A stretch of 64,000 nt of DNA from an uncultured Gemmatimonadales bacterium (GTDB lineage: Bacteria; Gemmatimonadota; Gemmatimonadetes; Gemmatimonadales; GWC2-71-9). The stretch lies in the NCBI GenBank assembly GCA_963705985.1, contig CAVPLK010000004.1:200173-264172 (forward strand), in the 5' to 3' direction. Shown in pieces: positions 1-15,164 of this stretch (within the stretch, counting starts at the first letter, position 1; each line of letters opens with the position of its first letter). The translations under genes and the position numbers were made by a program. The notes beneath the pieces were generated by a model, which worked only from the letters and a program-made list of their open reading frames with translations, had not been told where the DNA came from and did no database searches.

Positions 1-228
1 CGGTGTTCGGACCCGAGCTGGTGGAGCTCTTCCGTTCCATCAAGACCGCCTTCGATCCAGCCGGAATCCTCAACCCGGGGATCAAGCTCCCGGCCGGGGA
101 AGATGCCCATCGCTCGCCTCAAGGTCGGCGCCGCCGCCGCGAGCATTCCCGACGACATTGCCCGAGCCCTGCGGGACATCGAACGCACTGGCGGCTACGC
201 CCGCGCGCGCCTGGAGCTGGCCAGATGA
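1..228 (+). pseudogene. 3' end of an FAD-linked oxidase (GlcD-like) gene, cut by the window edge, apparent frameshift near 97-100
   Basis: Frame 3 reads [29 protein letters not shown], a typical FAD-oxidase C-terminal motif. A plausible tail ([40 protein letters not shown]) continues in frame 1 and stops at TGA 226-228, overlapping the thyA ATG (ATGA). The frame switch coincides with the GGGG run at 97-100. Confidence 0.4.
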
Positions 229-1019
229 AGCCCTACCTCGACCTCCTCTCCCGCATCCTCGACACCGGCGCCGCCAAGTCGGACCGAACAGGCACCGGCA
301 CACTCAGCGTGTTTGGTCACCAGATGCGGTTCGACCTGGCCGAGGGGTTTCCGCTGGTCACCACCAAGAAGCTCCACATGAAGTCGATCGTGTACGAGCT
401 GCTCTGGTTCCTGCGGGGAGACACCAACGTCAGGTACCTGCAGGAGCACGGCGTCAGCATCTGGGACGACTGGGCCGACCCGTCTGGCGAACTGGGCCCG
501 GTATACGGACGGCAGTGGCGCTCGTGGCCCACGCCGAACGGCGGGCACATCGACCAGATCACGCAGGTCGTCGAGGAAATCCACCGGAACCCCGATTCCC
601 GGCGGCTCATCGTGAGCGCCTGGAACCCCGCCGACATTCCCGACATGGCGCTGGCCCCCTGCCACGCCCTCTTCCAGTTCTACGTGGCCGACGGCCGCCT
701 CTCCTGCCAGCTCTACCAGCGGAGCGCCGACGCCTTCCTCGGCGTGCCGTTCAACATTGCCAGCTACGCCCTCCTGACCCTGATGGTGGCGCAGGTGACC
801 GGGCTCCGGCCCGGGGAGTTCATCCATACCTTCGGGGACGCCCACCTATATACCAACCATCTGGACGGGGCCCGGCTCCAGCTGTCGCGGACCCCGCGGC
901 CCCTGCCGACGATACGCCTGAACCCCGCCGTCACCTCCCTCTTCGATTTCCGCTTCGAGGACTTCGAGGTCGTCGGCTACGACCCGCACCCCCACATCCC
1001 CGGCAAGGTGGCGGTGTGA
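225..1019 (+). CDS. thyA: thymidylate synthase
   Basis: MKPYLDLL...[19 protein letters not shown]...[10 protein letters not shown]...[12 protein letters not shown]...[21 protein letters not shown]. This is full-length ThyA (264 aa) with the catalytic Cys motif PCH. Confidence 0.97.
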
Positions 1020-1513
1020 GCATCGCCCTGGTCGTGGCCGTCGCCGAGAACGGCGTCATCGGCCGGGACAACGCCCTGCCCTGGCGGCTCTCCGCCGACC
1101 TCCGCCGGTTCAAGGCGCTCACCCTGGGGCACACCGTCATCATGGGACGGAAGACCTTCGAGTCGATCGGGAAGGGACTGACCGGCCGACGGAACCTCGT
1201 CGTGAGCCGGAATCCGGAATTCCGCCCCGAAGGCGCCACTCGCGTACCGACCCTCGAGGCGGCGTTCACCGAGGCCGGCCCGACCGGCGAGGTGTTCGTG
1301 ATCGGCGGCGCCGACATCTACCGCCAGGCGATGCCGCGCGCCGAGAAGATCTACCTGACCCTGGTGCACGCCTCCCCCGAGGGGGACGCGCACTTCCCTC
1401 TCCCCGAGGGAAACGAGTGGGCGCTGGTCTCGACGGAACTCCGTGGCGCGGACGACAGGAACGAATTCTCCTCAGAGTTTCGGGTATACAAACGGAAAAG
1501 GACTGAGGACTGA
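1016..1513 (+). CDS. folA: dihydrofolate reductase
   Basis: GTG at 1016 overlaps the thyA stop (GTGA). [52 protein letters not shown]...[10 protein letters not shown] is a DHFR signature. The long upstream part of ORF 158..1513 is an out-of-frame overlap with thyA. Confidence 0.95.
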
Positions 1514-1575
1514 GGACTGAGAACAGCCGATCATACCGACCTCAGTCCTCAGTCCCCAGTCCTCAGTCCTAAGTC
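1501..1575. repeat. Heptamer tandem repeats arranged as a long inverted repeat at the folA 3' end
   Basis: GACTGAG x3 (1501-1521, containing the folA stop), a 19-nt spacer, then CTCAGTC-like x5 (1541-1575: ctcagtc ctcagtc cccagtc ctcagtc ctaagtc). The arms can pair over about 21 bp with one mismatch. Confidence 0.8.
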
Positions 1576-1711
1576 CTCCATCCCAACTTCAGTCCACCAA
1601 TCCGCCAAAAATCTATTGTGCTTCGCTCCCCTTTTTCTTAACTTAGTGTCCGACAACAGCAAGCACGTCGGCTCGCCGCAATTCGGTGGCAGCTTTTTTT
1701 AGGGGGAGTGT

Positions 1712-2818
1712 TTGGGAGTTCGTATCGGACTCGCCTACAACCTGAAGCCCCAAGCCGCAGCGATCGCTGGGGGAGACTTCGCCTCCCCTGTCGACCGGAA
1801 CACCGCCCTCCGCGCCCTCCGTACCGATCTCGACCAACCCGATCTCTACGCCGAGTGGGACGAACCCGGCACTATCGACGCCATCGAGCGCGCGTTGCAG
1901 CCGCTCGGCCAGGTCATTCGCCTGGAGGCCGACGCTTCGTTCCCGCAGAAGCTGGCCGATGCCCGTCCCGATTTCGTGTTCAACATTGCCGAAGGGCTCT
2001 ACGGCCCGAACCGCGAGGGGCACGTCCCCGCCATCTGCGAGTTCTACGGCATTCCCTGTCACGCCTCCGACCCGCTCGCACTCGGTCTCGCCCTCCACAA
2101 GGGGCGGGCCAAGGAGACGATGGTGGCGCGCGGCGTCCCGACGGCGCCGTTCCGGATCGCCGAGTCGGTGGCCGACGCCGCCACCTGCACCCTCCCCTTC
2201 CCGGTATTCGTCAAGCCGGCCTGCGAGGGATCGGGCAAGGGAATCACGGTCGACAACCTCTGCCACGACCGCGACGCCCTGGTCGGCCGGGTCGAGCACC
2301 TCCTGACCACCTACCGTCAGCCGGTACTCATCGAAGCCTGGCTGCCGGGCGCCGAGTTCACCGTCGCCGTGCTCGGCAACGGCGCCGAGGCGCGCTGCCT
2401 CCCAATCGTGGCCATGGACTACGCCGACCTCCCCGAGGGGGCCCCGCCCATCTACGGCTACGAGGCGAAGTGGCTCTGGGACACCCTCGACAATCCGCTC
2501 GACATCTATCAGTGCCCCGCGCCGATCCCGGAATCGCTGGCGCGCCGGATCCGTGAGGCTTCCCTCGGTGCCTACCACGCCCTCGGCTGCCGGGACTGGT
2601 GCCGGATCGACGTCCGCTGCGACGCCGACGGCAACCCGATGATCGTCGAGCTGAACCCGCTGCCGGGCGTCCTCCCCGATCCGCGCGACAATTCCTGCTT
2701 CCCCAAGGCGGCGCGGGCGGCCGGCCTGGACTACGACGAGCTGATCCAGACAGTGGCCGACATCGCCTGGCGGCGGATCACCGGCGGTCGGCGGCTCCTT
2801 GCCGAGGTCGCGGCGTGA
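1712..2818 (+). CDS. ATP-grasp ligase, D-Ala-D-Ala ligase-like family (paralog 1)
   Basis: TTG start after GGGGGAG. RIGLAYNLK...EWDEPGTIDAIERAL...DFVFNIAEG...PVFVKPACEGSGKGI...IVELNPLPG is the pre-ATP-grasp plus ATP-grasp pattern of the Ddl family. Confidence 0.85.
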   Translation: MGVRIGLAYNLKPQAAAIAGGDFASPVDRNTALRALRTDLDQPDLYAEWDEPGTIDAIERALQPLGQVIRLEADASFPQKLADARPDFVFNIAEGLYGPNREGHVPAICEFYGIPCHASDPLALGLALHKGRAKETMVARGVPTAPFRIAESVADAATCTLPFPVFVKPACEGSGKGITVDNLCHDRDALVGRVEHLLTTYRQPVLIEAWLPGAEFTVAVLGNGAEARCLPIVAMDYADLPEGAPPIYGYEAKWLWDTLDNPLDIYQCPAPIPESLARRIREASLGAYHALGCRDWCRIDVRCDADGNPMIVELNPLPGVLPDPRDNSCFPKAARAAGLDYDELIQTVADIAWRRITGGRRLLAEVAA

Positions 2819-3822
2819 GGGTTGCCCTCCTCCATGATGGCGGCAGCGACGAGTGGAGCGCGGCCGACGTCGCCGCCGTCCTCGCCAATGTCCGGGAAAT
2901 CGAGGGGATCCTGAAGGCGGCGGGCCACGCCACCGAGATGATCCCGGTGTACCTGGCGGACCTCGGCTGGATGGAGCGCTGCCAGAAGGCCGATCTGGTC
3001 TTCAACCTCTGCGAGGGCATCAACGGCCACGCGCGGTTCGAGGACTACGTGGTGGCCGCGCTCGAGCTGACCCGGGTGCCGTTTACCGGGTGCCGCTCCT
3101 GGCCGATCACGATCTGCCACCGGAAGCATGTGGCCAACACCCTCCTCCGGGAGGAGGGGCTCCCGGTCCCGGCCTTCGCGCTGGTGCACGAGCCGGTGGT
3201 ACCCGAGGGGCTGCGGTTCCCGGTCATCGTCAAGCCGTCAATGGAAGACGCCAGTGTCGGCATCGACGAAGGGTCCGTCTGCCACACCCCAGCGGCGCTC
3301 CTCGAACGGCTCGCCAAGGTGACAGCCACCTGGGAAGACGTCCTGGTGCAGGAGTATGTGGAAGGGCGCGAATTCAACGTCGGCTTCGTGGGGACCACCG
3401 CCCTGCCGATTTCCGAAATCGATTTTACCGGGCTCGGCGAAGGCAAGCCGCCCATCGTGACCTACGCCGCCAAGTGGAATGCGGGCAGCGACTACGACCT
3501 GCACACCATACCGGTCTGCCCCGCCAAGGTGGACCAGGCAACGGCAAAAAAGCTGGTAAGTGTTGCAGAACGCGCGTGGCGCGCTCTGGCAAAGTGCGAG
3601 GGATATGGACGAGTGGACCTGCGGCTCGATGCCGACGGCACGCCGTGGGTACTCGAACTGAATCCCGATCCTGACCTCTCGAGCGACGCCGGACTGGCGC
3701 GCATGGGTCGGGCATTCGGATGGGATTACTCGGCGCTGGTCCTCCAGATCGCCGACGAAGCGTTGGAGCGGGGCCGGATCGCGCTCGCGGAGGGCGCCCT
3801 TTCGGGGCGAGTCACTTCGTGA
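2815..3822 (+). CDS. ATP-grasp ligase, D-Ala-D-Ala ligase-like family (paralog 2)
   Basis: GTG 2815 overlaps the upstream stop (GTGA). VRVALLHDG...DLVFNLCEG...PVIVKPSMEDASVGI...VLELNPDPD has the same architecture as the upstream gene. The N-terminal part of ORF 2599..3822 is rejected as an overlap. Confidence 0.85.
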   Translation: MRVALLHDGGSDEWSAADVAAVLANVREIEGILKAAGHATEMIPVYLADLGWMERCQKADLVFNLCEGINGHARFEDYVVAALELTRVPFTGCRSWPITICHRKHVANTLLREEGLPVPAFALVHEPVVPEGLRFPVIVKPSMEDASVGIDEGSVCHTPAALLERLAKVTATWEDVLVQEYVEGREFNVGFVGTTALPISEIDFTGLGEGKPPIVTYAAKWNAGSDYDLHTIPVCPAKVDQATAKKLVSVAERAWRALAKCEGYGRVDLRLDADGTPWVLELNPDPDLSSDAGLARMGRAFGWDYSALVLQIADEALERGRIALAEGALSGRVTS

Positions 3823-4319
3823 CGCGGGCGGCGGTTGCCGGACGGCTCCGGGGGCTGACCACCGCCGACCGGAGCCGACTCGAGGAAATCACGCGGGCGG
3901 TCGGGCTCTTTCGAGACGACGAAGTGCCCGTGGCGCTGGAGGTCTTCGACGCCGCGGTGGCCGGCAGCCCGGACTACACGGCGCTCGGTGTCGAGGTGGA
4001 CGGTCGGCTGGCGGGCTGGATCTGCTGGGGACCGACCCCCTGCACCGTGGCCACCTGGGATCTCTACTGGATGGCGGTCGATCCGGCGCAGCACGGGCTC
4101 GGACTCGGCACGCTTCTGGTAGAGGAGATGGAGCGGCGCCTCGCGGGTGCGGCGCGGCTCATAGTGGTCGAGACGGCGGGCCGGGCGGACTACGCACCGA
4201 CACGCGCCTTCTACGAGGCCCGGGGGTACCGGGCCGTCGGATTGATCCCGGATTTCTACGCGCCGGGAGACGACCAGGTGACGTTCGTGAAGTACTTCGA
4301 GGTCCCCGCAACAACCTGA
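3819..4319 (+). CDS. GNAT family N-acetyltransferase
   Basis: GTG 3819 overlaps the upstream stop (GTGA). WMAVDPAQHGLGLGTLLVEEMERRL...AFYEARGY is the GNAT motif A/B region. Confidence 0.8.
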   Translation: MTRAAVAGRLRGLTTADRSRLEEITRAVGLFRDDEVPVALEVFDAAVAGSPDYTALGVEVDGRLAGWICWGPTPCTVATWDLYWMAVDPAQHGLGLGTLLVEEMERRLAGAARLIVVETAGRADYAPTRAFYEARGYRAVGLIPDFYAPGDDQVTFVKYFEVPATT

Positions 4320-4334
4320 GGATGGGGTACTGGC

Positions 4335-5510
4335 ATGGAGACTTGGCAGGAAGTCCTGCGTAAGAACTCGATCGCGTCGCTCGACACGCTCGCCAGCCGG
4401 TTTGGTGCCGAGAACTTCCCCGAGCTCGACCGACTCCGCCTGGCCGCGGAGAATTTCGAGTTCCGGATCTCGCCGGCGATGGTGGACCTGATCAAGTCCC
4501 CCGACGACCCGATCTGGCGCCAGTACGTGCCCACCGTCCAGGAGCTCGAGGTCCACGACGGCATCGTGGACTCGCTCAACGAGGACGAGGACAGCCCGGT
4601 GCCGAACATCACGCACCGCTATCCCGACCGGGCGCTCTTCCTGGTCAGCCCGGTCTGCGCCAGCTACTGCCGGTTCTGCACCCGGCGGCGCAAGGTGGGC
4701 GACCCCGAGAAGATCCCGATGTCGCAGTTCGAGTCGGCCTTCCAGTACCTGGAGAGCCCACACCGAAATCCGCGACGTCATCATGTCGGGCGGCGATCCG
4801 CTGCTCCTCAACGACCGGCGACTGGACGCCATTCTGTCCCGGCTGCGGAGCATCAAGCACATCGAGATCATCCGGATCGGGAGCCGCGTCCCCTGCCACC
4901 TGCCCGGAGCGGATCACGCCCGAGCTCTGTGCCACGATCAAGAAGTACCATCCGGTGTGGATCAACACCCACTTCAACCACCCCGACGAACTGACGCCGG
5001 CGGCGGTGAAGGGCCTCGGCATGCTGGCCGACGCCGGCATCCCGCTCGGCTGCCAGACGGTGCTCCTCCGGGGGGTCAACGACACCCCCGAGGTCATGAA
5101 GCAGCTGATGCACCGGCTGATGCTGGCCCGGGTGCGGCCCTACTACATCTACATGGCCGACCAGGTGGCCGGCGCCGAGCATTTCCGGACCAGCGTCCAG
5201 ACCGGCATCCAGATCATGGAGTCGCTGCGGGGCTGGACCAGCGGCCTGGCCAACCCGCAGTTCGTCATCGACGCCCCGGGCGGCGGCGGGAAGATCCCCC
5301 TGCTCCCCGAGTACGTCATTTCGATGAACGACGAGGAGGTGGTGCTCCGGAACTTCGCGGCGACCAGTTCGTGTACAGCAGCCCAACGAGGAAGAGGCGA
5401 TGGTGGCGATGGGCCGCCGCACCGATCCCGAGTATCTCTTCCAGCCGACGTTGCAGTTGAAGAAGCCGGCGAAGCGAACCAGCAAGACAGCGAAGCGAAA
5501 GCTGGCCTGA
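4335..5510 (+). pseudogene. KamA-family radical-SAM amino-acid 2,3-aminomutase, four frameshifts as assembled
   Basis: [28 protein letters not shown] (CxxxCxxC), then [72 protein letters not shown]. These segments lie in frames 0>1>2>1>0. The switches are at CCC 4757-4759 (+1), CCC 4903-4905 (+1), about 5356 (-1) and about 5382-5384 (-1). The stop is TGA 5508-5510. Confidence 0.85.
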
Positions 5511-5534
5511 GGCGTCGACAGCGCCGTTTCATCA

Positions 5535-5600
5535 GGTGCGGGCGTGAGCCCGCACCGTCCTGGAAGAGCCCGCCCGGCCGTTGCCGGGCGGGATTTTTCT
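5535..5600 (+). terminator. Two tandem hairpins after the aminomutase gene; the second is a canonical rho-independent terminator
   Basis: GGTGCGGGC-gtga-GCCCGCACC (5535-5556). Then CCCGCCCGGC-cgtt-GCCGGGCGGG followed by ATTTTTCT (5569-5600). Confidence 0.8.
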
Positions 5601-5664
5601 ATCCCTCTTGCCCTGCGTCACGCGGGGTTGAACGTTTGTAGGGAACCTGCATCGGAGGGGAGCC

Positions 5665-5973
5665 ATGGCGCTCGGCGGCAAGAGCTGGGAGGAGTGGATT
5701 GCGCAGTACGCCACCAGTCACCAGCACCCGGTCAACCGGGTGTGCCACACCATCGGCATCCCGCTGATCGTGGCCTCCATTCTGTTGCTCGTCCCGTCGA
5801 TCTGGATGCGCAGGCCTCTGGAAACTGGCCGCTGAGGCTCTTCGTGGTCGGGCTGGATCTTTCAGTTCATCGGCCATGCCTTCGAGGGGAAACCGCCCGA
5901 GTTCTTCAAGGACTGGCGATTCCTGTTCGTGGGCCTTCGCTGGTGGGTGGCCAAGCTGCAGGGCCGGACGTGA
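5665..5973 (+). pseudogene. DUF962 (Mpo1-like) small membrane protein, reading frame disrupted around 5810-5855
   Basis: GGAGGGGA RBS then ATG 5665. WEEWIAQYATSHQHPVNRVCHTIGIPLIV...WIFQFIGHAFEGKPPEFFKDWRFLFVGLRWW. The start frame has an in-frame TGA at 5833. Plausible sequence (LWKLAA, RLFVVG) sits in the other two frames between 5813 and 5852. Confidence 0.6.
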
Positions 5974-6825
5974 GGCTCTCCCGGCGGGAATTCATGCTTC
6001 GTCCGGGGCCGCCGGCCTCGGCGTCGCCCTGCCCCGTTCCCTCCTCGACCCCGACGCCGACAAGCTCAAGCGCATCGGCATCCAGCTCTACACCGTCCGG
6101 CAGGCGCTGGACGCCGACTTTGCCGGCACGCTGGAACGGCTCGCGGCCATCGGATACCAGGAGGTGGAGTTCGCGTGGAACCGCGGGACCTCCCCCTCGG
6201 ACACGAAGGAGATCCTGGCGAACGACTGGACTGACGGCTCCAGCGGTGCACCTCGTCCGTCGACGAATTCGAGTCGGGATGGAGCACCACCGTCGCCGCG
6301 CGCGCGGACTTTGGGGGGTCGAGTACCTGGTCCTCGCCTGGATCGACGCCGGGCAGCGGAAGACGCTCGACGATTATCACGCGGTGGGCCGAGCGGTTCA
6401 ACCGGTACGGGAAGGTGGCCCGCGAGGCGGGGTTCAGGTTCGCCTACCACAACCACGCCGCCGAACTGACGCCGATTGACGGCGAGATCCCCTACGACAT
6501 TCTGCTCGCGCGAGACGGACCCCGCGCACGTGATCGGCTTCGAGATGGACATCTACTGGGTGCTGGCGGGCGGTGGCGATCCCCTCGCCTATTTCGCCAA
6601 GTGGCCCGGGCGGCTTCCCGCTGCTGCACGTCAAGGGACGCGCCGCGGATGGCACGATGGTCGACGTCGGTGCCGGGTACCGTGGACTGGGCAGCCATCT
6701 TTGCCCACGCGAAGCAGGCTGGCGTCCGCCACAGCTTCGTCGAACACGATGACGCCACCGACCCCTTCGCCTCGGCGGCCGCCAGCTACGCCTACCTCCG
6801 ACAACTGCGGTTCAAGAATGAATAG
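5970..6825 (+). pseudogene. Tat-signal sugar phosphate isomerase/epimerase (xylose isomerase-like TIM barrel), about 9 frameshifts as assembled
   Basis: GTG 5970 overlaps the DUF962 stop. The Tat motif SRREFML is present. The pieces KRIGIQLYTVRQAL, GYQEVEFA, GLTAPAVHL, DEFESGWSTTVAA, EYLVLAWIDAGQRKTLDDYHAV, ERFNRYGKVAREAGFRFAYHNHAAEL, DPAHVIGFEMDIYW, FPLLHVK and TVDWAAIF...FVEHDD are spread over all three frames. 856 nt minus 8 insertions plus 1 deletion gives 849 nt, which is divisible by 3. Confidence 0.7.
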
Positions 6826-7910
6826 GCTCCTCGGCACATTGCTCCTGCTCCTCGTCGTGGCGGCTCCCGCCAGCGCCCAGTCCCCCCGACGGCACAACGT
6901 GGTCCTCATCGTGACCGACGGCTTCCGCTGGCAGGAGCTCTTCGGCGGCGCCGACCCGGCGCTCAACAACGCCGAGTACGGCGGCGTCGAGGACACCGCC
7001 GCGCTGCGGCGCGCCTTCCTGGTGGGCGACGCGGAGGCCAACCGCCGGGCGCTGATGCCGTTCATGTGGAGTGTCATCGCGAACCGAGGGCAGCTCTTCG
7101 GGGACCGGGCCCTCGGCAGCGATGTCGTGGTGACCAACGGGTACAAGTTCTCGTATCCCGGCTACAACGAGATGCTGACCGGCAAGGCCGACCCCCGCAT
7201 CGACCGGAACGACTACGGCCCCAACCCGAACGTGACGGTGTTCGAGTGGCTGGCGGGGCAGCCGGAATTCGCGGGACAAGGTGGCGGCGTTCGGCACCTG
7301 GGACGCGTTCGCGTCGATCTTTAACCAGGACCGCGCCCCGATGTGGGTCCGAGCCGGCTGGGATCCGCCATTTCCCGGCGACACCGCCCCTCGCCGAGTT
7401 CTGCTCGACACTCTCTACGCCACCACCACCCGCGTCTGGCAGGAAATGCCGTACGACGCCTTCATGCAGGCAGTGGTCATGGACTACGTCCAAACCGAGC
7501 GGCCCCAGGTGCTCTACATCGGCTATGGCGAGACCGACGAGTGGGCCCACGAAGGCCGATACGACCAGTACCTGGCCTCGGCGCACCGGGTGGACGGGTT
7601 CATCCGCGATCTCTGGAATACGATGCAGTCACTGCCAGAGTATGCCGACATGACGACCTTCATCATCACCACCGATCACGGGCGCGGGAGCGGGTTGAAG
7701 GCGTGGCGCAATCACGGCGCCAAGGTCGAAGGCGCGGAGTACATCTGGGTGGCGGTGCTTGGCCCCGAAACCCCGGGCCTCGGCGTCCGGCACAACCTGC
7801 CGGAGTTGACGCAGGCGCAGATCGCAGCGACGGTGGCGGCGGCGGTGGGGATGGATTGGGTGGCCGAGTCCGGCGCGGCGCCGCGGCTGCCGGTGTTTCG
7901 GAGTCGGTAA
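6818..7910 (+). pseudogene. Secreted alkaline-phosphatase-superfamily enzyme (type I phosphodiesterase-like), one frameshift near 7280
   Basis: Signal peptide MNRLLGTLLLLLVVAAPASAQ. VVLIVTDGFRWQE...FIITTDHGRGSG...WRNHG. The frame changes 2>0 at QPEFAGQ|VAAFGTWD. Confidence 0.7.
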
Positions 7911-7947
7911 CAGAAGCTCACGCGAAGGCGCGAAGCCGCGAAGGACG

Positions 7948-7987
7948 TCCCCCCTCTCCGCTTGCCGGAGAGGGGGACAGGGGGTGA
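7948..7987 (+). repeat. Intergenic hairpin element, family 1, copy A
   Basis: tCCCCCCTCTCC-gcttgcc-GGAGAGGGGGa-CAGGGGGTGA. It lies between convergent genes. The same element recurs at 8774-8815 and, inverted, at 12501-12543. Confidence 0.85.
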
Positions 7988-7995
7988 CATCTCGC

Positions 7996-8607
7996 CTAGA
8001 ACACGAACATCACCCCGCCACTGAGTTCCCCCTGCGTGAAGAAGACCCCGTCGGAGGATGTAATGACGCAGTAGCCCGGCAGGCTGCACCAGAACTCGGT
8101 GTTGGAGGAGAGGGTGCTCATCCAGAGCCGTATCTGGGCGCGGAAGCCGATGTGCTGGTTCACCCAGGTCTTGAGTCCGAGCGCGCCACCGAAGGAGAAG
8201 ACCCATTCGTCGCCGAGGTCGTCGTTCTGCGGGGCAAGGTGGGTCCCGCCCACGGTCAGGGCAAAGAACGGCTTGGTGTTCGGGTTGTTGCCGAACTCGA
8301 GTGCGCCGCCGATCTGGAGATATTCGATAGCGGCGTCGCCCACGGTGTATTTCCCGGCGGTGTCGGGCTTGAAGTCGATGCTGGTGGATTGCCGGCTGTA
8401 GACCAGCTCCACCAGCCCGTCACGCTTGACGCGAAACCCGATGGTTCCGCCCCAGGCGAGGTTGTCATTGGCCGAGAACTGGCCGGTCTCGCCGTTGACG
8501 GTGCCGCCAAAGCGGTAACCGATGGTGGGCGCAATCTCGAAGCTGGACTGCGCAGCGAGAGGTGAAGCGGCAATCAACAACATCCCGACAATCCCGAACC
8601 GTTGCAT
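7996..8607 (-). CDS. Outer-membrane beta-barrel protein (OmpW/porin-like)
   Basis: Signal peptide MQRFGIVGMLLIAASPLAAQ, alternating beta-strand pattern, C-terminal ...GGVMFVF (aromatic terminus). The start is taken at the second Met of the ORF. Confidence 0.75.
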   Translation of the reverse strand: MQRFGIVGMLLIAASPLAAQSSFEIAPTIGYRFGGTVNGETGQFSANDNLAWGGTIGFRVKRDGLVELVYSRQSTSIDFKPDTAGKYTVGDAAIEYLQIGGALEFGNNPNTKPFFALTVGGTHLAPQNDDLGDEWVFSFGGALGLKTWVNQHIGFRAQIRLWMSTLSSNTEFWCSLPGYCVITSSDGVFFTQGELSGGVMFVF

Positions 8608-8975: not shown

Positions 8976-10671
8976 ATGACCCAACAGGACCAGTCGAAGG
9001 TGTACGACGTCTGCATCGTGGGCTCGGGCGCCGGCGGCGGGATGGCCGCCTACATGCTCACCAGGGCCGGGGCGGATGTCGTGCTCCTGGAGGCGGGCGG
9101 TCAGTGGGACAACACCACCGACTCCGCCATGCTCACCTGGCCCTTCAACACCCCGAAGCGCGGCGCCTCGACGAAGGAGCGCCCGTTCGGTGAGTTCGAC
9201 GCCTGCATCGGCGGCTGGGAGCTGCCCGGGGAGCCCTTCACGGTGGCGGAGGGCTCGAAGTTCGGGTGGTGGCGGGCCCGGATGGTGGGAGGGCGCACCA
9301 ACCACTGGGGCCGGATTTCCCTCCGCTTCGGACCGAATGACTTCCGCCGCAAGAGCCTCGACGGGCTGGGTGACGACTGGCCCATCAGCTACAACGACCT
9401 TGCCCCCTACTATGATCGGGTCGATGACCTGATTGGCATCTTCGGCAGCGCCGAGGGACTGCCGAACGAACCGGACGGCCACTTCCTCCCGGCGCCGAGG
9501 CCACGCTGCTACGAACTGCTGGTGAAACAGGCCTGCGACAACCTCAAGGTGGCCTGCATTCCCGCCCGACTCTCGATTCTGACCAAGCCGCTGGGTGACC
9601 GTGCCGCCTGTCACTACTGCGGCCAGTGCAACCGCGGCTGCTCCGTGAACGCCAATTTTTCCTCCACCAACGTCCTCATTCCTCCCGCGCTGGCCACCGG
9701 CAAGCTGACGCTGGTCACCAACGCCATGGCGCGTGAGGTGACGGTCGGTTCCAACGGGCTCTGCGACGGCGTGACCTACGTGGACAAGACGACCAACACC
9801 GACCGGCAGGTGCGCGCGAAGGTGGTGGTCCTGGCGGCCAGCGCCTGCGAGTCGGCCCGGCTCCTCCTCAACTCGAAGAGCGCCAGGTTTCCGCAGGGGC
9901 TGGCCAACTCGAGCGGCGTGGTGGGGAAGTACCTGACCGACACCACCGGCACCGACGTGGCGGGGTTCATCCCCAGGCTCGAGAACGGCATCCCCCACAA
10001 CGAAGACGGCGTGGGCGGGGGACACCTCTACGGCCCCTGGTGGCTCGACAACAGGAAGCTCGACTTCCCGCGCGGCTACCATATCGAGATCTGGGGCGGC
10101 CGCGGCCAGCCGTCATACGGCTTCATGGGCGGGATCCAGAATTATCCCGCGTTTGGCGGCTACGGAAAGGCGCTGAAGGATTCCTACCGGCGGCTCTACG
10201 GCACCACCATCGGCTTCAGCGGCCGCGGCGAGATGATTCCCGAACGCCGACTCCTACTGCGAGATCGACCCCGACATCAAGGATCAGTGGGGCATCCCGG
10301 TCCTCCGGTTCCACTGGAAGTGGAGCGACTACGAGTACAGGCAGGTCAAGCACATGCAGGAGACCTTTCGCGCGCTGATCGACGAGATGGGCGGCGAGGT
10401 GTTCAGTCCGATGCCCACGAAGGAGCAGGGCTATGGCATCGCCACCGGCGGACAGATCATCCACGAACTCGGCTGTGTCCGGATGGGCAACGACCCTGAC
10501 CGCTCGGTGGTCAACGCCAATTGCCAGGCGCACGACGTGAAGAATCTCTTCGTGGCCGATGGCGGGCCGTTCGTGTCCCAGGCGGACAAGAACCCGACCT
10601 GGACCATTCTCGCGCTCTCGATGCGCACCTCCGAGTACATCGCGGCGCAACGCCGCCAGGGGGCCCTGTGA
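8976..10671 (+). pseudogene. GMC-family FAD oxidoreductase (gluconate/glucoside dehydrogenase flavoprotein-like), one frameshift at about 10240
   Basis: YDVCIVGSGAGGGMAAYMLTRAG (GxGxxG), RMVGGRTNHWG, then the C-terminal HELGCVRMGNDPDRSVVNANCQAHDVKNLFVADGGPF in frame 1. The switch is at CCC 10239-10241 (GEMIP|NADSYCEIDP). Confidence 0.85.
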
Positions 10672-12618: not shown

Positions 12619-13959
12619 CTACAGAGTCCACCCACTCCGGTATTTCGGTGTAATCCACTCCTCTGGCAGCTTCATGTTGGTCACATTCCCCGTGACCGGA
12701 TCGATCTGCAGCGTCTGGCCCGCCCGGATGGCCAGGCACCCGAGCAGCACCATTTCCGTCAGCCCACCCGCGTAACCGTCGAAGCTCGACAGCGTGGCCA
12801 GCCCACCTTTGCAGGCGTCGATCCACTCGTCGTATACCCCCTTCGACCGCTCGTACACCTTGACGGGCGGATTGGCCCGCACCTCGGCGTCGCGCTTGGG
12901 GTCGAGCAGTACCGGATCTTCGCCATACATCCCGGCGATCAGGGCGCCGTCATCGCCGATCCAGAGTTGGCCACCGATGTCGGCCGGCGGCCACTCCATC
13001 GTGATCGGCAAGCCCACCGGCTGCGGCGGCCGGAGGTCGCCGTCCCGCCAGACCACTTTCACCGCTGAACGCTTCCCCTTGGCCGGGAACTGGTACTCCA
13101 CACGCGTCGACTTCGGCGCCGTCTCGAGGTAGCGCTGTGTCGACTCGGGAATGATCCGTTCCGGGTAGCCGAGGTCGAGGATCCAGTAGGCGGCGTCCAT
13201 GCCGTGGCAGGCCATGTCACCGAGGGCACCGGTGCCGAAATCCCACCAGCCGCGCCAGCGGAACGGCGCGTAGGCCGGGTTGTAGGGGCGCTCCGGTGCG
13301 GGGCCCAGCCAGAGGTTCCAATCCATCGTGAGCGGCGGGGCGTGCAGGTCCGTTGGCCGGTCCATCCCCTGCGGCCAGATGGGGCGGTTGGTCCAGTACT
13401 GCACCTCCCGCACGGTGCCGATCACGCCGGCCTCGATCCACTCGCGGAGAATGCGGACCCCATCGCCGGTGTGCCCCTGATTGCCCATCTGGGTGGCCAC
13501 CTTGGTCTTGGCCGCCTGCGCCTTGAGCGTCCGGACCTCGGTCAGCGTCCGCGCCAGTGGCTTCTGGCAGTAGACGTTCTTGTTCATTCGCAGCGCCATC
13601 ATCGCGGCAGCGGCATGCCCGTGATCCGGAATCGTGATGGTCACGGCGTCGATGTTCTTCGCCTCCTGCGCGAACAGCTCGCGATAGTCGCGGTACTTCT
13701 TCGCGTCGGGGTACTTTCGAAAGGTGTCCTCCGACTGCTTCAGGTCCACGTCGCAGAGGGCGTAGATGTTCTGGCTCGACACTCCCTTCACGTCGCTCTC
13801 TCCCATGCCGCCCACGCCGATGCAGGCGATGTTGAGCAGATCGCTCGGCGCGGTGTAGCCGGGGCCGCCGAGCACGTGGCGCGGGACGATGGTAAAGGCG
13901 GTGCTCGCTGCCGCCATGCTGCCCACGAAGTCCCGCCGGGTCGGAAGGGTCTTGGTCAT
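12619..13959 (-). CDS. Tat-signal Gfo/Idh/MocA family oxidoreductase
   Basis: MTKTLPTRRDFVGSMAAASTAF (twin-arginine), IACIGVGGMG, YCQKPLART. The part of the ORF upstream of Met142 is rejected. Confidence 0.9.
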   Translation of the reverse strand: MTKTLPTRRDFVGSMAAASTAFTIVPRHVLGGPGYTAPSDLLNIACIGVGGMGESDVKGVSSQNIYALCDVDLKQSEDTFRKYPDAKKYRDYRELFAQEAKNIDAVTITIPDHGHAAAAMMALRMNKNVYCQKPLARTLTEVRTLKAQAAKTKVATQMGNQGHTGDGVRILREWIEAGVIGTVREVQYWTNRPIWPQGMDRPTDLHAPPLTMDWNLWLGPAPERPYNPAYAPFRWRGWWDFGTGALGDMACHGMDAAYWILDLGYPERIIPESTQRYLETAPKSTRVEYQFPAKGKRSAVKVVWRDGDLRPPQPVGLPITMEWPPADIGGQLWIGDDGALIAGMYGEDPVLLDPKRDAEVRANPPVKVYERSKGVYDEWIDACKGGLATLSSFDGYAGGLTEMVLLGCLAIRAGQTLQIDPVTGNVTNMKLPEEWITPKYRSGWTL

Positions 13960-13970
13960 GTCGGTGTCCG

Positions 13971-15164
13971 TCAGGCCGGAGTAGTGGCCCGCGTGGAGGC
14001 GGGCCGGAAGAGTAGTGCGAAGACAAGGAGAATGACGATGGCGCCGATGGCGGGCACCTGCCAGATGCCGCGCCAGTCGTGCCCACCGCCTGGGAGCATG
14101 AAGTACTGCACGACCCGCCCGGAGGCCCAGGCACCGATCAGGTACCCGACCCCCTGCGTGATGAACGCCAGGAATCCCTGCGCCGCCGCGCGGACCTTCG
14201 GCCCCGCCCGTTCGTCGGTGTAGATCTGGCCGGTCACGAAAAAGAAGTCGTAGCAGATGCCGTGGAGCAGGATGCCGGCGTAGAGCATCCACATCGAGGG
14301 CCCCGTGTCGCCGTAGGCGAAGAAGAAGTACCGCACCGCCCAGGCCAGCATGCCGACCAGCAAGATCCGCCGCACGCCCCACCGCCTCAGGAACCAGGGC
14401 AACAGCAGCATGAACCCGATCTCGGACATCTGTCCGAGGGTCATCTTGCTGGCCGGCTCCGCCATGCCGACTTCATTCAGGAAGAGATTGGTGAAGGCGT
14501 AGTAGAACTGGAGCGGAATGCAGAGGAGAAACGAGCCGACCACGAAGGTGGCGAAGGAGCGGTCCTTGAGGAGCGCCAGGGCGTCGAGGCCAAGGATGTC
14601 GCGGACGCTGAGCGGCTTGCCGGCGGCATGCGGCGGTGTGTGGGGCAGCAGGAAGGCGAAGAGTCCGAGAACCACGGACGCGGCGGCGGCCAGCCGCAAC
14701 GGCGTGGCGGTCGCCTCGAGCCCCATCTGGCCGACGACGACGCCGGCCACGATCCAGCCGATGGTGCCAAGGACCCGGATCGCGGGGAATTCCTTTGCCG
14801 GATCCTGCACGTGGTCGAAGGCGATCGAGTTGGTGAGCGCGAGCGTCGGCATGTAGCAGAGCCCGTAGCCGACGAGCACCAGGAAGAAGGGGAGAAACTC
14901 GGTCACCGTGGATGCCCACCAAAGCATCGCCGCGCCGAGCAGGTAGAGCACCGCCAGGATCCGCTCGGTGGCGAAGAAGCGGTCGGCCACCATCCCCACG
15001 AAGAAGGGGGAGATGATCGCGGCAATGGCGAGCGCGCCGTAGGCCAGGCCGATCTGTTCGCCGTCGAACTGAAGGGTGGTGCCGAGGTAGGTGCCCATGG
15101 TGACGAACCAGGCACCCCAGATGAAGAACTGGAGGAACATCATGATGGAGAGCTTCAGTTTCAC
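13971..15164 (-). CDS. MFS transporter, nucleoside:H+ symporter (NHS/YegT-like) family
   Basis: (V)[26 protein letters not shown] is a typical NHS N-terminus. About 12 hydrophobic segments. GTG start overlapping the DUF1080 stop. Confidence 0.85.

What the first reader, a model, noticed from the sequence alone, without database searches (positions are those of the whole stretch)
1712..5600. Operon of two Ddl-like ATP-grasp ligases, a GNAT and a KamA-family aminomutase: possible beta-amino-acid peptide pathway
Seen in sequence: the ATP-grasp 1, ATP-grasp 2 and GNAT genes are joined by GTGA start/stop overlaps (2815-2818, 3819-3822). The radical-SAM aminomutase (CASYCRFC) follows after 15 nt. 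The unit ends with two hairpins, including a canonical terminator (5569-5600). The two ligases are paralogs with the same motif order. Established knowledge: KamA-type enzymes make beta-lysine (relatives make beta-glutamate or beta-arginine), and a KamA plus GNAT pair (AblA/AblB) makes the osmolyte N-epsilon-acetyl-beta-lysine in methanogens. Inference: adding two amide-forming ATP-grasp enzymes to this pair suggests ribosome-independent synthesis of an acetylated beta-amino-acid di/tripeptide or oligomer (a compatible solute or small metabolite). I cannot match this to a characterised pathway. Caveat: the aminomutase carries four frameshifts in this assembly.
Basis: partly seen in the sequence, partly recalled or inferred. 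Interest (0 to 1): 0.7.

Follow-up and report, generated by a model that had tools for sequence, protein, structure and literature searches.

The report
Conserved beta-lysine peptide-ligase gene cassette
This four-gene operon (two D-Ala-D-Ala-ligase-like enzymes that are not cell-wall ligases, an acetyltransferase and a lysine 2,3-aminomutase) recurs, often as fused genes, in at least five bacterial phyla and most likely makes an unknown acetylated beta-lysine-containing small peptide.

Summary
Window 1712-5510 holds ATP-grasp 1, ATP-grasp 2 and a GNAT joined by GTGA overlaps. A KamA-family aminomutase follows after 15 nt, and a canonical terminator closes the unit.

The window comes from a Gemmatimonadales MAG. 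All 76 related loci with enough DNA carry AG1-AG2-GNAT. KamA follows directly in 45 of 71 loci.

Outside this order the same four parts recur in Nitrospirota, Omnitrophota, Spirochaetota, Gammaproteobacteria and Deltaproteobacteria MAGs. There they are fused pairwise or in threes: KamA-AG1, AG1-AG2, AG2-GNAT and AG-AG-GNAT. These fusions tie the four enzymes to one pathway.

The aminomutase keeps every lysine-binding residue of Clostridium LAM, so beta-lysine is the likely intermediate. Both ligases keep the ATP-grasp catalytic residues. They lack the D-Ala-binding Glu15 and score far below the curated Ddl cut-offs, so they are not cell-wall Ddl. HDAC-like deacetylases and S51 or M14 hydrolases recur beside the cassette, which suggests the product is turned over.

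The four frameshifts are unique to this assembly. Orthologues are intact, and the shifts fall in a zone where identity to the closest relative starts to drop, so assembly error is likelier than gene death.

No characterised pathway, NCBIfam model or paper matches the cassette. The product is still unknown.

The parts
1616..1646 (+). Conserved promoter-like motif: TTGTGC (1616-1621), 17-nt spacer, TAACTTAG (1639-1646)
   Evidence: The motif pair T[AT]TTGT[GA] ... TTCTTA[AC][CT]TT occurs at a fixed 21-nt offset upstream of AG1 in 59 of 78 loci. The sigma-70 consensus scan did not call it. It resembles the TAnnTTTG type known from Bacteroidota (own knowledge).
1673..1700 (+). Leader hairpin plus T-run (terminator-like) inside the 5' UTR, immediately before the ribosome-binding site
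   Evidence: Called by the terminator scan. It is conserved across loci. RNAalifold finds 8 pairs, 2 of them with compensatory changes. Any attenuator role is inferred, not shown.
1701..1708 (+). Shine-Dalgarno-like AGGGGGAG, 3 nt before the TTG start
   Evidence: Read directly from the sequence.
1712..2818 (+). AG1: Ddl-like ATP-grasp ligase, 368 aa. This is the type found fused to KamA in other phyla.
   Evidence: Pfam PF07478 at 8e-34. The Ddl models score below cut-off. Catalytic residues are conserved, but E15 is absent and Y216 is W. The AF2 model has pLDDT 83, and the best PDB matches are Ddl at TM 0.65-0.81. The KamA-AG fusions P0138, P0171, P0202 and P0156 match AG1 best.
2815..3822 (+). 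AG2: second Ddl-like ATP-grasp ligase, 335 aa. This is the type found fused to the GNAT in other taxa.
   Evidence: Pfam PF07478 at 1e-25. It is 32% identical to AG1. Catalytic residues are conserved, while S150, S281 and L282 are replaced by A, A and G. The AG2-GNAT fusion P0246 supports the link. The second ligase in other phyla matches AG2 better than AG1.
3819..4319 (+). GNAT N-acyltransferase, 166 aa
   Evidence: Pfam Acetyltransf_1 at 5e-11. PDB 2R7H, 'putative D-alanine N-acetyltransferase', matches at E 3e-26. The GNATs of cassettes in other phyla are 30-41% identical, E 1e-22 to 1e-38.
4335..5510 (+). KamA-family lysine 2,3-aminomutase, about 391 aa after repair. It is broken by four single-base indels in this assembly.
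   Evidence: TIGR00238 scores 289 bits against a cut-off of 199. TIGR03820 AblA scores 454 bits against a cut-off of 525. It scores 376 bits to LAM 2A5H, and C125, C129, C132, R134, D293, D330 and K337 are all conserved.
4757..5378 (+). Frameshift cluster: +1 at 4757, +1 at about 4902, -1 at about 5355, -1 at about 5378
   Evidence: The indels are unique to the window when compared with L001, L003, L005 and L010. A GC3 frame scan finds the switches independently. KamA has no window-specific amino-acid changes outside the junctions. The cluster sits in the zone where identity to L001 begins to fall.
5535..5601 (+). Two 3' hairpins. The second is a canonical intrinsic terminator (stem 5569-5592 plus T-run).
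   Evidence: Free energy is -61 kcal/mol for 5505-5605, z = -5.5.

Best explanation
This is a four-enzyme biosynthetic operon for a small beta-lysine-containing amide or peptide, transcribed from its own conserved promoter.

Step 1: the KamA-type radical-SAM/PLP enzyme converts L-lysine to beta-lysine. This is inferred from fully conserved lysine-binding residues.

Steps 2 and 3: two Ddl-fold ATP-grasp ligases each make one amide bond through an acyl-phosphate. AG1 probably handles beta-lysine directly, because AG1 is the type fused to KamA elsewhere. AG1 and AG2 probably act as a Ddl-like heterodimer, because they are a single polypeptide in many taxa. The catalytic machinery is shown to be intact. 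The substrates are inferred.

Step 4: the GNAT acetylates a remaining free amine, most plausibly the epsilon-amino group of the beta-lysine moiety. This is inferred from recurrent HDAC/acetyl-polyamine-amidohydrolase-like partners.

The product would be an N-acetylated di- or tripeptide-like cytoplasmic metabolite. Associated deacetylases and peptidases in some lineages would control its level. A compatible-solute or stress-protectant role is the leading guess, and it is the weakest link.

The KamA frameshifts in this window are most likely consensus errors of the assembly.
For: - **Conservation in the order.** AG1-AG2-GNAT is present in 76 of 76 Gemmatimonadales loci with room for it. KamA follows immediately in 45 of 71.
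- **Conservation across phyla.** Ca. Magnetoovum and Omnitrophota have KamA.AG|AG|GNAT. All five AG.AG-fusion contexts, which were chosen without regard to KamA, have KamA upstream. Four have a GNAT gene downstream and the fifth has it fused to the ligase.
- **Domain fusions.** Architectures seen are KamA-AG1, AG1-KamA, AG1-AG2 (about 40 of the 150 best 50%-identity cluster representatives), AG2-GNAT, AG-AG-GNAT and S51-AG-KamA.
- **Orthology.** The GNAT and AG2 partners in other phyla are specific homologues of the window's GNAT and AG2.
- **Lysine-type aminomutase.** R134, D293, D330 and K337 are conserved in the window. They are also conserved in all four stand-alone cassette KamAs and in nearly all fusion and other KamA sequences aligned.
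- **Competent ligases that are not Ddl.** ATP-grasp catalytic residues are intact in both ligases, but the D-Ala1 site is not. Ddl models score below cut-off.
- **Turnover enzymes.** An HDAC-like gene sits inside the operon in L174 and is fused to GNAT domains in L091. An AstE/AspA deacylase, M14 peptidases and S51 peptidases sit adjacent or fused.
- **Operon signals.** These are overlapping stop/start codons, one conserved promoter-like motif and one strong terminator.
Against: - No product has been observed, and no characterised homologue exists for AG1, AG2 or the GNAT.
- KamA is missing next to the trio in 26 of 71 Gemmatimonadales loci. I could not search whole genomes for a copy elsewhere.
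- KamA scores below the AblA equivalog cut-off (454 against 525 bits). Conserved acidic residues would not by themselves exclude another basic substrate such as arginine or ornithine.
- Variants with three ATP-grasp domains (L081, L088), an adenylating-enzyme-like gene plus an S51 peptidase (L086), or an Orn/DAP/Arg decarboxylase (L087) show that the chemistry differs between lineages.
- A divergently transcribed MFS transporter in L090 and L091, with a weaker MFS hit in L089, could point to export rather than a cytoplasmic solute.
- Four of about ten frameshift candidates in 64 kb fall in KamA. Recent pseudogenisation in this genome is therefore not excluded.
Confidence: 0.55

Rival explanations
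1. The functional unit is only AG1-AG2-GNAT and uses ordinary amino acids, in the manner of an N-acetyl-dipeptide synthetase. On this view KamA is an optional accessory or a neighbour with a separate role, such as making free beta-lysine or N-acetyl-beta-lysine.
For: 26 of 71 Gemmatimonadales loci have the trio followed by unrelated genes. AG1 in these loci keeps the same invariant motifs.
Against: KamA is physically fused to AG1-type ligases in several phyla. It is adjacent in all five independently chosen AG.AG-fusion contexts. KamA may simply lie elsewhere in the KamA-less genomes, which I could not test.
Confidence: 0.15
2. The cassette builds a polymer or oligomer, such as a cyanophycin-like or poly-beta-lysine-type storage material. 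One ATP-grasp would make the repeating unit and the other would polymerise it. S51 (cyanophycinase-family) peptidases would mobilise it.
For: Peptidase_S51 is fused to AG-KamA in P0279 and encoded next to AG-KamA in L086. M14 peptidases are adjacent in L090 and L174. Some lineages have three ATP-grasp domains.
Against: The ligases have the Ddl fold, and Ddl is a small-molecule dipeptide ligase. The S51-linked variants lack AG2 and GNAT, so they may make something different. A capping acetyltransferase fits a small molecule better. There is no primer or carrier gene.
Confidence: 0.1
3. The ligases modify a protein or carrier peptide with beta-lysine or other residues. Models for this are RimK or LysX/LysW-like tailing, or an alternative to EpmA/EpmB beta-lysylation of EF-P.
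For: ATP-grasp enzymes of other families do this. A weak LysW-type zinc-ribbon gene lies about 500 nt upstream in the Omnitrophota locus L088. KamA-family EpmB supplies beta-lysine for EF-P (established knowledge).
Against: The window KamA scores 229 bits against a cut-off of 369 for EpmB, and it has the LAM_C domain. The Gemmatimonadales cassette has no substrate or carrier gene, because its genes overlap or abut. The closest fold relatives are all small-molecule ligases.
Confidence: 0.08
4. AG1 and AG2 are spare or alternative cell-wall D-Ala-D-X ligases, for peptidoglycan remodelling or glycopeptide-resistance-like functions, and the gene neighbours are unrelated.
For: The best sequence and fold matches are Ddl. 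Public annotation calls them D-alanine--D-alanine ligase.
Against: Their scores are about half the curated Ddl cut-offs. The D-Ala1-binding Glu15 and its GGxSxExxVS loop are absent, and Y216 is W. Fusions to KamA and GNAT make no sense for cell-wall synthesis. No mur, dcw or van genes are nearby.
Confidence: 0.03
5. In this particular genome KamA is a recently inactivated pseudogene, so the local cassette runs without beta-lysine or is being lost.
For: There are four indels in 1.2 kb, against about six elsewhere in 64 kb. None occur in the 2.6 kb of AG1-AG2-GNAT. KamA has been lost from this position in 37% of related species.
Against: There are no window-specific amino-acid replacements outside the junctions. 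At least two indels are at short C runs. Other genes in the window are frameshifted too. The cluster falls where identity to L001 starts to drop, from about 99% before 4500 to about 85% after 5500. That is the pattern expected from collapsed strain variants.
Confidence: 0.2

Closest known systems
AblA/AblB pathway for N-epsilon-acetyl-beta-lysine (methanogens and some bacteria)
   Same: A KamA-type lysine 2,3-aminomutase is encoded together with a GNAT acetyltransferase. The aminomutase's best NCBIfam match is the AblA model, and its lysine-binding residues are conserved.
   Different: Two ATP-grasp ligases are added and are tightly coupled by overlaps and fusions. The aminomutase scores below the AblA equivalog cut-off (454 against 525 bits). 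The 166-aa GNAT gives no AblB-type hit. The product must therefore carry extra amide bonds.
D-alanine--D-alanine ligase (Ddl/Van family)
   Same: Same fold and same ATP/Mg2+ and transition-state residues: K97, K144, E187, K215, R255, D257, E270 and N272. Identity is 30-33%.
   Different: There is no Glu15 or GGxSxExxVS loop, and an invariant E-W-D motif occurs instead. Y216 is W. S281/L282 are altered (S/C in AG1, A/G in AG2). Scores are far below the curated cut-offs. There is no cell-wall gene context, and the ligases are fused to KamA or GNAT in other taxa.
NAGGN synthesis (Ngg/AsnO): the N-acetylglutaminylglutamine amide osmolyte of Pseudomonas and Sinorhizobium (own knowledge)
   Same: A GNAT acetyltransferase is combined with an ATP-grasp peptide ligase to make an N-acetylated dipeptide solute without ribosomes or NRPS.
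   Different: The ATP-grasp family differs, no aminomutase is involved, and there is one ligase domain rather than two. No sequence relationship was detected in the NCBIfam scan.
Carnosine synthase and bacterial L-amino-acid ligases (BacD/YwfE, RizA, TabS) (own knowledge)
   Same: These are ATP-grasp enzymes that join free amino acids into di- or oligopeptides. Carnosine synthase joins a beta-amino acid (beta-alanine).
   Different: These belong to other ATP-grasp subfamilies. AG2 reaches only 25 bits on ATP-grasp_4, below its cut-off of 27. None is paired with a KamA enzyme.
Cyanophycin synthetase and cyanophycinase
   Same: This is ATP-grasp-dependent non-ribosomal amide synthesis involving a basic amino acid, paired with an S51 peptidase for breakdown. 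S51 is fused or adjacent to AG-KamA in L083 and L086.
   Different: There is no Mur-ligase-like domain and no CphA architecture. The S51-linked variants lack AG2 and GNAT. A polymer is not indicated for the Gemmatimonadales form.
PDB 2R7H, 'putative D-alanine N-acetyltransferase of GNAT family'
   Same: It is a direct homologue of the window GNAT (E 3e-26, aligned over residues 6-156).
   Different: It is a structural-genomics entry with no functional study found. Its name appears to derive from a Ddl-like neighbour rather than from an assay (inference).

Membership tests
D-alanine--D-alanine ligase (Ddl, EC 6.3.2.4) | ATP-grasp fold with the Dala_Dala_lig_C domain and catalytic K/E/R/D/E/N residues | tested here: met
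   PF07478 scores 8e-34 and 1e-25. K97, K144, E187, K215, R255, D257, E270 and N272 are conserved in AG1 and AG2. Foldseek top hits are Ddl, at TM 0.65-0.81 depending on normalisation.
D-alanine--D-alanine ligase (Ddl, EC 6.3.2.4) | Score at or above the curated NCBIfam Ddl cut-offs | tested here: not met
   On NF002378, AG1 scores 166 bits and AG2 124 bits against a cut-off of 243. On TIGR01205 they score 139 and 109 bits against 246.
D-alanine--D-alanine ligase (Ddl, EC 6.3.2.4) | D-Ala1 site triad Glu15-Ser150-Tyr216, and D-Ala2 site Ser281/Leu282 | tested here: not met
   E15 and its loop are absent in both. Y216 is W in both. S150 is A in AG2. S281/L282 become S/C in AG1 and A/G in AG2. 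The E. coli DdlB sequence and residue roles are from my own knowledge.
D-alanine--D-alanine ligase (Ddl, EC 6.3.2.4) | Cell-wall (mur/dcw or van) gene context | tested here: not met
   The flanking genes are thyA-folA upstream and unrelated genes downstream. In other phyla the ligases are flanked by KamA and GNAT.
KamA family / lysine 2,3-aminomutase | CxxxCxxC radical-SAM cluster motif, PLP-binding Lys337 and the LAM_C domain | tested here: met
   CASYCRFC is present, K337 is conserved and PF12544 scores 3.5e-22. TIGR00238 scores 289 bits against a cut-off of 199.
KamA family / lysine 2,3-aminomutase | Lysine-binding residues Arg134 (carboxylate) and Asp293 plus Asp330 (epsilon-ammonium) | tested here: met
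   All three are conserved in the window, in orthologues, in all four stand-alone cassette KamAs and in most fusion proteins. The residue roles come from the 2A5H structure paper (own knowledge; the paper was not retrievable).
KamA family / lysine 2,3-aminomutase | Equivalog-level score for AblA-type LAM (TIGR03820) | tested here: not met
   It scores 454 bits against a cut-off of 525. It is still the best of the specific models: Glu-type scores 390 against 650, Arg-type 316 against 600 and EpmB 229 against 369.
KamA family / lysine 2,3-aminomutase | Uninterrupted reading frame | tested here: not met
   This assembly has four single-base indels. The frame is intact in L001, L003, L005, L010 and all other KamA-positive loci.
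AblA/AblB N-epsilon-acetyl-beta-lysine system | AblB-type beta-lysine acetyltransferase next to AblA | tested here: not met
   The GNAT's only NCBIfam hits are weak RimI and AAC(6') matches below cut-off, with no AblB-type model among them. It is 166 aa.
Known anti-phage defence systems (PADLOC) | Any protein matching a PADLOC-DB model | tested here: not met
   None of the four proteins has a hit at E <= 0.001.
ATP-grasp peptide ligase acting on beta-lysine (proposed new family) | Beta-lysine-dependent ATP hydrolysis and amide formation | not testable with these tools
   This needs enzyme assays. Only genomic linkage and fusion evidence is available.

The most novel reading that the evidence does not exclude
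The cassette defines an undescribed, multi-phylum class of beta-lysine-based, reversibly acetylated peptide metabolites, possibly short polyamides. A dedicated double ATP-grasp synthetase makes them, working as a Ddl-like heterodimer or a single fused chain. HDAC-like deacetylases and S51/M14 peptidases control their abundance. This would be a new family of stress-protectant or nitrogen-storage compounds, common in soil Gemmatimonadales and in anaerobic sediment bacteria.
Probability: 0.35. Interest if true: 0.8.

Novelty: new variant of a known kind. Interest (0 to 1): 0.63.

Why it matters
Gemmatimonadales are abundant soil bacteria that are hardly ever cultured, and they are known for tolerating dry soils. 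A conserved pathway of theirs to an unknown beta-lysine peptide would add to the short list of ribosome-independent, non-NRPS peptide metabolites.

It could also reveal a new compatible solute or storage compound. It would give function to several hundred clusters of proteins, in at least five phyla, that are now mis-annotated as 'D-alanine--D-alanine ligase'.

The natural fusions (KamA-ligase, ligase-ligase and ligase-GNAT) give ready-made constructs for biochemical reconstitution. The existing GNAT crystal structure (2R7H) would gain a substrate.

Tried and rejected
- **Riboswitch control.** Rfam at E <= 1 over window 1-8000 gave only spurious miRNA hits on a hairpin at 1497-1572. Nine cassette loci from other phyla gave no riboswitch upstream of the cassette.
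- **Defence system.** No PADLOC hits.
- **Literature.** Ten full-text searches found no paper describing the cassette. They combined aminomutase, KamA, beta-lysine, ATP-grasp, GNAT, D-alanine ligase, Gemmatimonad* and 2R7H. One hit on KamA plus ATP-grasp (PMC11237513) was unrelated. The Iyer/Aravind 2009 amidoligase survey and the LAM and glutamate-aminomutase papers are not held. Prior mention there cannot be excluded.
- **A divergent KamA as the replacement in KamA-less loci.** A 462-aa KamA-family gene follows the GNAT in L033 and lies 2.7 kb away in L025. A metagenome scan, however, showed only 2 of 80 loci of that family next to AG1-AG2-GNAT. I rejected it as a general explanation.
- **Structure search for a closer characterised relative.** Only Ddl structures were found. 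The AlphaFold-database library was unavailable.
- **A true ddl elsewhere in the window, for comparison.** None was found.
- **Random assembly errors as the full explanation for the frameshifts.** The GC3 frame scan shows they are enriched in KamA. I therefore examined lineage-specific substitutions and identity profiles instead.

Full report
**1. What is in the sequence**

The ORF list and the raw sequence show four same-strand genes:
- AG1: TTG 1712 to TGA 2818, 368 aa.
- AG2: GTG 2815 to TGA 3822, 335 aa.
- GNAT: GTG 3819 to TGA 4319, 166 aa.
- KamA-family gene: ATG 4335 to TGA 5510.

The GTGA start/stop overlaps are exactly at 2815-2818 and 3819-3822, and the spacer before KamA is 15 nt.

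Pfam assigns Dala_Dala_lig_C to AG1 (8e-34) and AG2 (1e-25). It assigns Acetyltransf_1 to the GNAT, and Radical_SAM plus LAM_C to the aminomutase. AG1 and AG2 are paralogues at 32% identity. Each is about 30-33% identical to E. coli DdlB (the DdlB sequence is from memory).

The 3' end folds into hairpins. The last one (stem 5569-5592 plus a T-run) is the only strong terminator-like site in the region.

**2. Source and the frameshifts**

The window is from a Gemmatimonadales MAG. The closest locus is L001, from a Gemmatimonadales MAG whose name suggests a long-read survey (my reading of the name). It is 99% identical in AG1.

The aminomutase reading frame changes four times. Alignment with four intact orthologues pins this to single-base indels unique to the window: +1 at 4757, +1 at about 4902, -1 at about 5355 and -1 at about 5378. 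At least two are at short C runs.

Other genes in the window are also frameshifted. The gene ending near 222 shifts at about 95. A 547-aa gene shifts at about 7277.

A GC3-based Viterbi frame scan recovers the KamA switches independently. It adds candidates at 10237, 10889, 41645 and 61334. KamA therefore holds 4 of about 10 frameshift candidates in 64 kb, which is an enrichment.

Two observations argue against real decay:
- KamA has no window-specific amino-acid replacement outside the junctions. Its per-segment identity to L010 is 96-100% over the conserved core and 83% in the variable C-terminal tail.
- Identity to L001 is about 98-99% up to about 4500 and falls to about 85% beyond 5500. 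The indel cluster sits in the zone where this decline begins, as expected where a consensus collapses two strains.

I rate assembly error at about 0.8 and recent pseudogenisation at about 0.2. Only reads can settle it.

**3. The ligases are not cell-wall Ddl**

Both keep the ATP-grasp catalytic set: K97, K144, E187, K215, R255, D257, E270 and N272 in DdlB numbering. Both lack the GGxSxExxVS loop with Glu15 that holds the first D-alanine. Both have Trp for Tyr216. The second D-Ala site is changed, with S281/L282 becoming S/C in AG1 and A/G in AG2.

Curated NCBIfam Ddl models score them at 166 and 124 bits against a cut-off of 243.

An AlphaFold model of AG1 (pLDDT 83, pTM 0.84) has the Ddl fold. 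Its best PDB matches are all Ddl, at TM 0.65-0.81 depending on normalisation. No closer characterised relative exists.

Across phyla the AG1 family has an invariant E48-W-D50...T54 motif just before helix 1, where Ddl has Glu15. A pair of acidic residues there would suit a diamino substrate. This is inference.

**4. The aminomutase is lysine-type**

Against Clostridium subterminale LAM (2A5H, 376 bits), the following are all conserved: the three cluster cysteines, Arg134, Asp293, Asp330 and the PLP lysine 337. They are equally conserved in the Gemmatimonadales orthologues and in most KamA-ligase fusion proteins. The same holds for the stand-alone KamA genes of cassettes in other phyla.

From established knowledge, Asp293 and Asp330 bind the epsilon-ammonium group of lysine and are replaced in glutamate 2,3-aminomutase. 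I could not retrieve the papers.

The best specific NCBIfam model is AblA, at 454 bits and below its cut-off of 525. It is ahead of the Glu, Arg and EpmB types. Beta-lysine is the most likely product.

**5. Conservation within the order**

tblastn of the four proteins was run on 80 genome loci. AG1-AG2-GNAT is present in all 76 loci with enough DNA. KamA follows directly in 45 of 71 informative loci and is absent there in 26, where unrelated genes follow.

In Gemmatimonadales the strict core is therefore the trio. Whether the KamA-less genomes encode KamA elsewhere could not be tested.

A divergent 462-aa KamA-family gene follows the GNAT in L033 and lies nearby in L025. That family is only rarely next to the trio, in 2 of 80 metagenome loci. 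It is not a general substitute.

**6. Conservation and fusions across phyla**

An exhaustive HMMER search of 1.84 billion cluster representatives found 947 relatives of AG1 at E <= 1e-30. The 150 best include these architectures:
- About 40 double-ligase proteins (AG-AG, 600-790 aa).
- KamA-AG1 fusions (P0138, P0171, P0202).
- One AG1-KamA fusion (P0156).
- AG-GNAT fusions (P0242, P0246).

Follow-up searches added AG-AG-GNAT triple fusions (P0438, P0457) and an S51-peptidase-AG-KamA protein (P0279).

Gene neighbourhoods are as follows. A dot marks a fusion within one protein and a bar separates adjacent genes.

| Locus | Source | Arrangement |
|---|---|---|
| L084 | Ca. Magnetoovum | KamA.AG, AG, GNAT |
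| L088 | Omnitrophota | KamA.AG, AG, GNAT, then a RimK-like ATP-grasp |
| L081 | Deltaproteobacteria MAG | KamA.AG, AG, AG |
| L090 | ENA/NCBI assembly, taxon not given (synteny matches L091) | MFS (divergent), KamA, AG.AG, GNAT |
| L091 | Gammaproteobacteria MAG | MFS (divergent), KamA, AG.AG, GNAT-HDAC-GNAT |
| L092 | Spirochaetota | KamA, AG.AG, GNAT |
| L093 | metagenome | KamA, AG.AG.GNAT |
| L174 | metagenome | KamA, HDAC-like, AG.AG, GNAT, then a convergent M14 peptidase |

All five nevertheless have KamA upstream. Four have a GNAT gene downstream and the fifth has it fused to the ligase.

The GNAT and the second ligase in these loci are specific homologues of the window's GNAT (30-41% identity) and of AG2. 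This is strong fusion-plus-synteny evidence that the four enzymes act in one pathway. It also indicates that AG1 is the partner of KamA and AG2 the partner of the GNAT.

**7. Variants and turnover enzymes**

Some lineages replace AG2 and GNAT:
- An adenylating-enzyme-like gene plus an S51 (cyanophycinase/PepE family) peptidase, in L086 and L083.
- An Orn/DAP/Arg decarboxylase, in L087.

HDAC/acetyl-polyamine-amidohydrolase-like domains occur inside the operon (L174) or fused to the GNAT (L091). An AstE/AspA-family deacylase and M14 peptidases lie adjacent.

HDAC-family enzymes deacetylate epsilon-acetyl-lysine or acetylated alkylamines. From my own knowledge, DoeB of ectoine catabolism belongs to the AstE/AspA family. 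Both facts fit an N-acetylated alkylamine, such as the epsilon-amine of a beta-lysine residue, that is made and removed on demand. All of this is inference.

**8. Proposed mechanism**

- Lysine is converted to beta-lysine by KamA.
- AG1 and AG2 carry out two successive acyl-phosphate-mediated amide ligations. They probably form a heterodimer that mirrors the Ddl homodimer, because the two are so often one chain.
- The GNAT carries out N-acetylation.

The product would be an acetylated di- or tripeptide-like metabolite containing beta-lysine.

*Shown:* the gene set, its conservation and fusions, the intact catalytic residues and the lysine-type pocket. *Inferred:* the substrates of AG1 and AG2, the acetylation site, and the cellular role.

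The compatible-solute idea has only weak support:
- The analogy to AblAB and to NAGGN.
- A TreT-like glycosyltransferase near the Omnitrophota cassette.
- An rloABC-like operon next to the cassette in L090 and L091. In Pseudomonas aeruginosa that operon is required for hypo-osmotic tolerance (PMC11957051).

The divergent MFS transporters could equally indicate export.

**9. Regulation**

An A-tract, then TTGTGC, a 17-nt spacer and TAACTTAG (window 1616-1646) lie upstream of AG1. This motif is conserved at fixed spacing in 59 of 78 loci.

The 65-95-nt leader contains a conserved terminator-like hairpin with a U-run immediately before the ribosome-binding site (window 1673-1700). It has modest covariation support: 8 pairs, 2 with compensatory changes. 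This could be an attenuator. No Rfam family matches.

**10. Comparison with known systems and novelty**

The closest known systems are:
- AblA/AblB: same aminomutase-plus-GNAT logic, but no ligases and a different GNAT.
- Ddl: same fold, different substrate site and context.
- NAGGN synthesis, carnosine synthase and L-amino-acid ligases: same kind of chemistry, but other ATP-grasp families.
- Cyanophycin synthetase and cyanophycinase: the S51 link.

The only solved relative of the accessory proteins is PDB 2R7H, a structural-genomics GNAT named 'putative D-alanine N-acetyltransferase' with no functional study found.

No NCBIfam model, PADLOC model or paper in the searchable library describes the cassette. 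I file it as a new variant of a known kind: an aminomutase/GNAT pathway extended by a dedicated double ATP-grasp ligase.

Interest is moderately high. The cassette is widespread, consistently mis-annotated, supported by multiple independent fusions, and directly testable. Its product remains unknown.

Noticed in passing
window 1497-1572: A long near-perfect hairpin lies between folA and the cassette promoter. It is built from tandem heptamers: (GGACTGA)n on one arm and (TCAGTCC)n on the other. Free energy is -45.6 kcal/mol (z = -7.6) and it is unique in the window. It produced spurious miRNA hits in Rfam. About 30 nt of gaps against L001 fall in 1000-1999, so the copy number may vary.
   Followed up: partly
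window 1616-1700; same position in L001-L080: There is a conserved promoter-like motif: TTGTGC, a 17-nt spacer, then TAACTTAG, resembling the Bacteroidota-type TAnnTTTG. It is followed by a 65-95-nt leader with a conserved terminator-like hairpin and U-run directly before the Shine-Dalgarno sequence. This may be an attenuator of unknown trigger. No Rfam match.
   Followed up: partly
window ~95, ~7277, 10237, 10889, 41645, 61334: Further same-strand frame switches occur without a nearby stop. Two are confirmed by homology to L010 and four come from the GC3 scan only. The assembly carries indel errors beyond the aminomutase.
   Followed up: partly
window 1-8000 vs L001: DNA identity to the closest relative is about 98-99% for 1-4500 and falls to about 85% after 5500. 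This is either a recombination or strain-switch boundary or an assembly chimera. The KamA indel cluster lies in the zone where the decline begins.
   Followed up: partly
L033 10706-12094; L025 ~13357-14568; L094-L173: A divergent 462-aa KamA-family protein scores below all NCBIfam cut-offs and is 27% identical to the window KamA. It is common in soil metagenomes and often sits next to a second KamA-like gene (for example L106, L107, L114, L137). Its function is unknown.
   Followed up: partly
L090 10385-15974; L091 11610-15998: An AstE/AspA-type deacylase plus an rloABC-like operon lies on the opposite strand right after the cassette in L090 and the gammaproteobacterial MAG L091. The operon comprises an ATP-grasp RloC, a 7TM inactive transglutaminase RloB and a retropepsin-like RloA. 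In P. aeruginosa rlo is linked to hypo-osmotic tolerance (PMC11957051).
   Followed up: partly
L086 5368-5451: A c-di-GMP-I riboswitch (51.6 bits against a gathering score of 35) lies just downstream of the S51 peptidase gene of an AG-KamA variant cassette and upstream of a hybrid histidine kinase.
   Followed up: no
L088 6287-6472 and 12028-15264: In the Omnitrophota locus a weak LysW-type zinc-ribbon gene lies about 500 nt upstream of KamA.AG. A TreT-like glycosyltransferase plus a sugar nucleotidyltransferase lie downstream. These are possible links to carrier-protein chemistry or to solute synthesis.
   Followed up: no
L030 (MAG labelled Bacillota), L046 (MAG labelled Solirubrobacterales): Contigs in MAGs assigned to other phyla carry an AG1 gene (L030 the whole cassette; L046 is too short) at 71-72% AG1 identity to the window, like true Gemmatimonadales loci. 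Binning contamination is likely.
   Followed up: no
window 5665-5835: A small membrane-protein ORF (MALGGKSWEEWIAQYATSHQHPVNRVCHTIGIPL...) lies just after the cassette terminator. It is conserved in L010 at the same position. No link to the cassette is evident.
   Followed up: no
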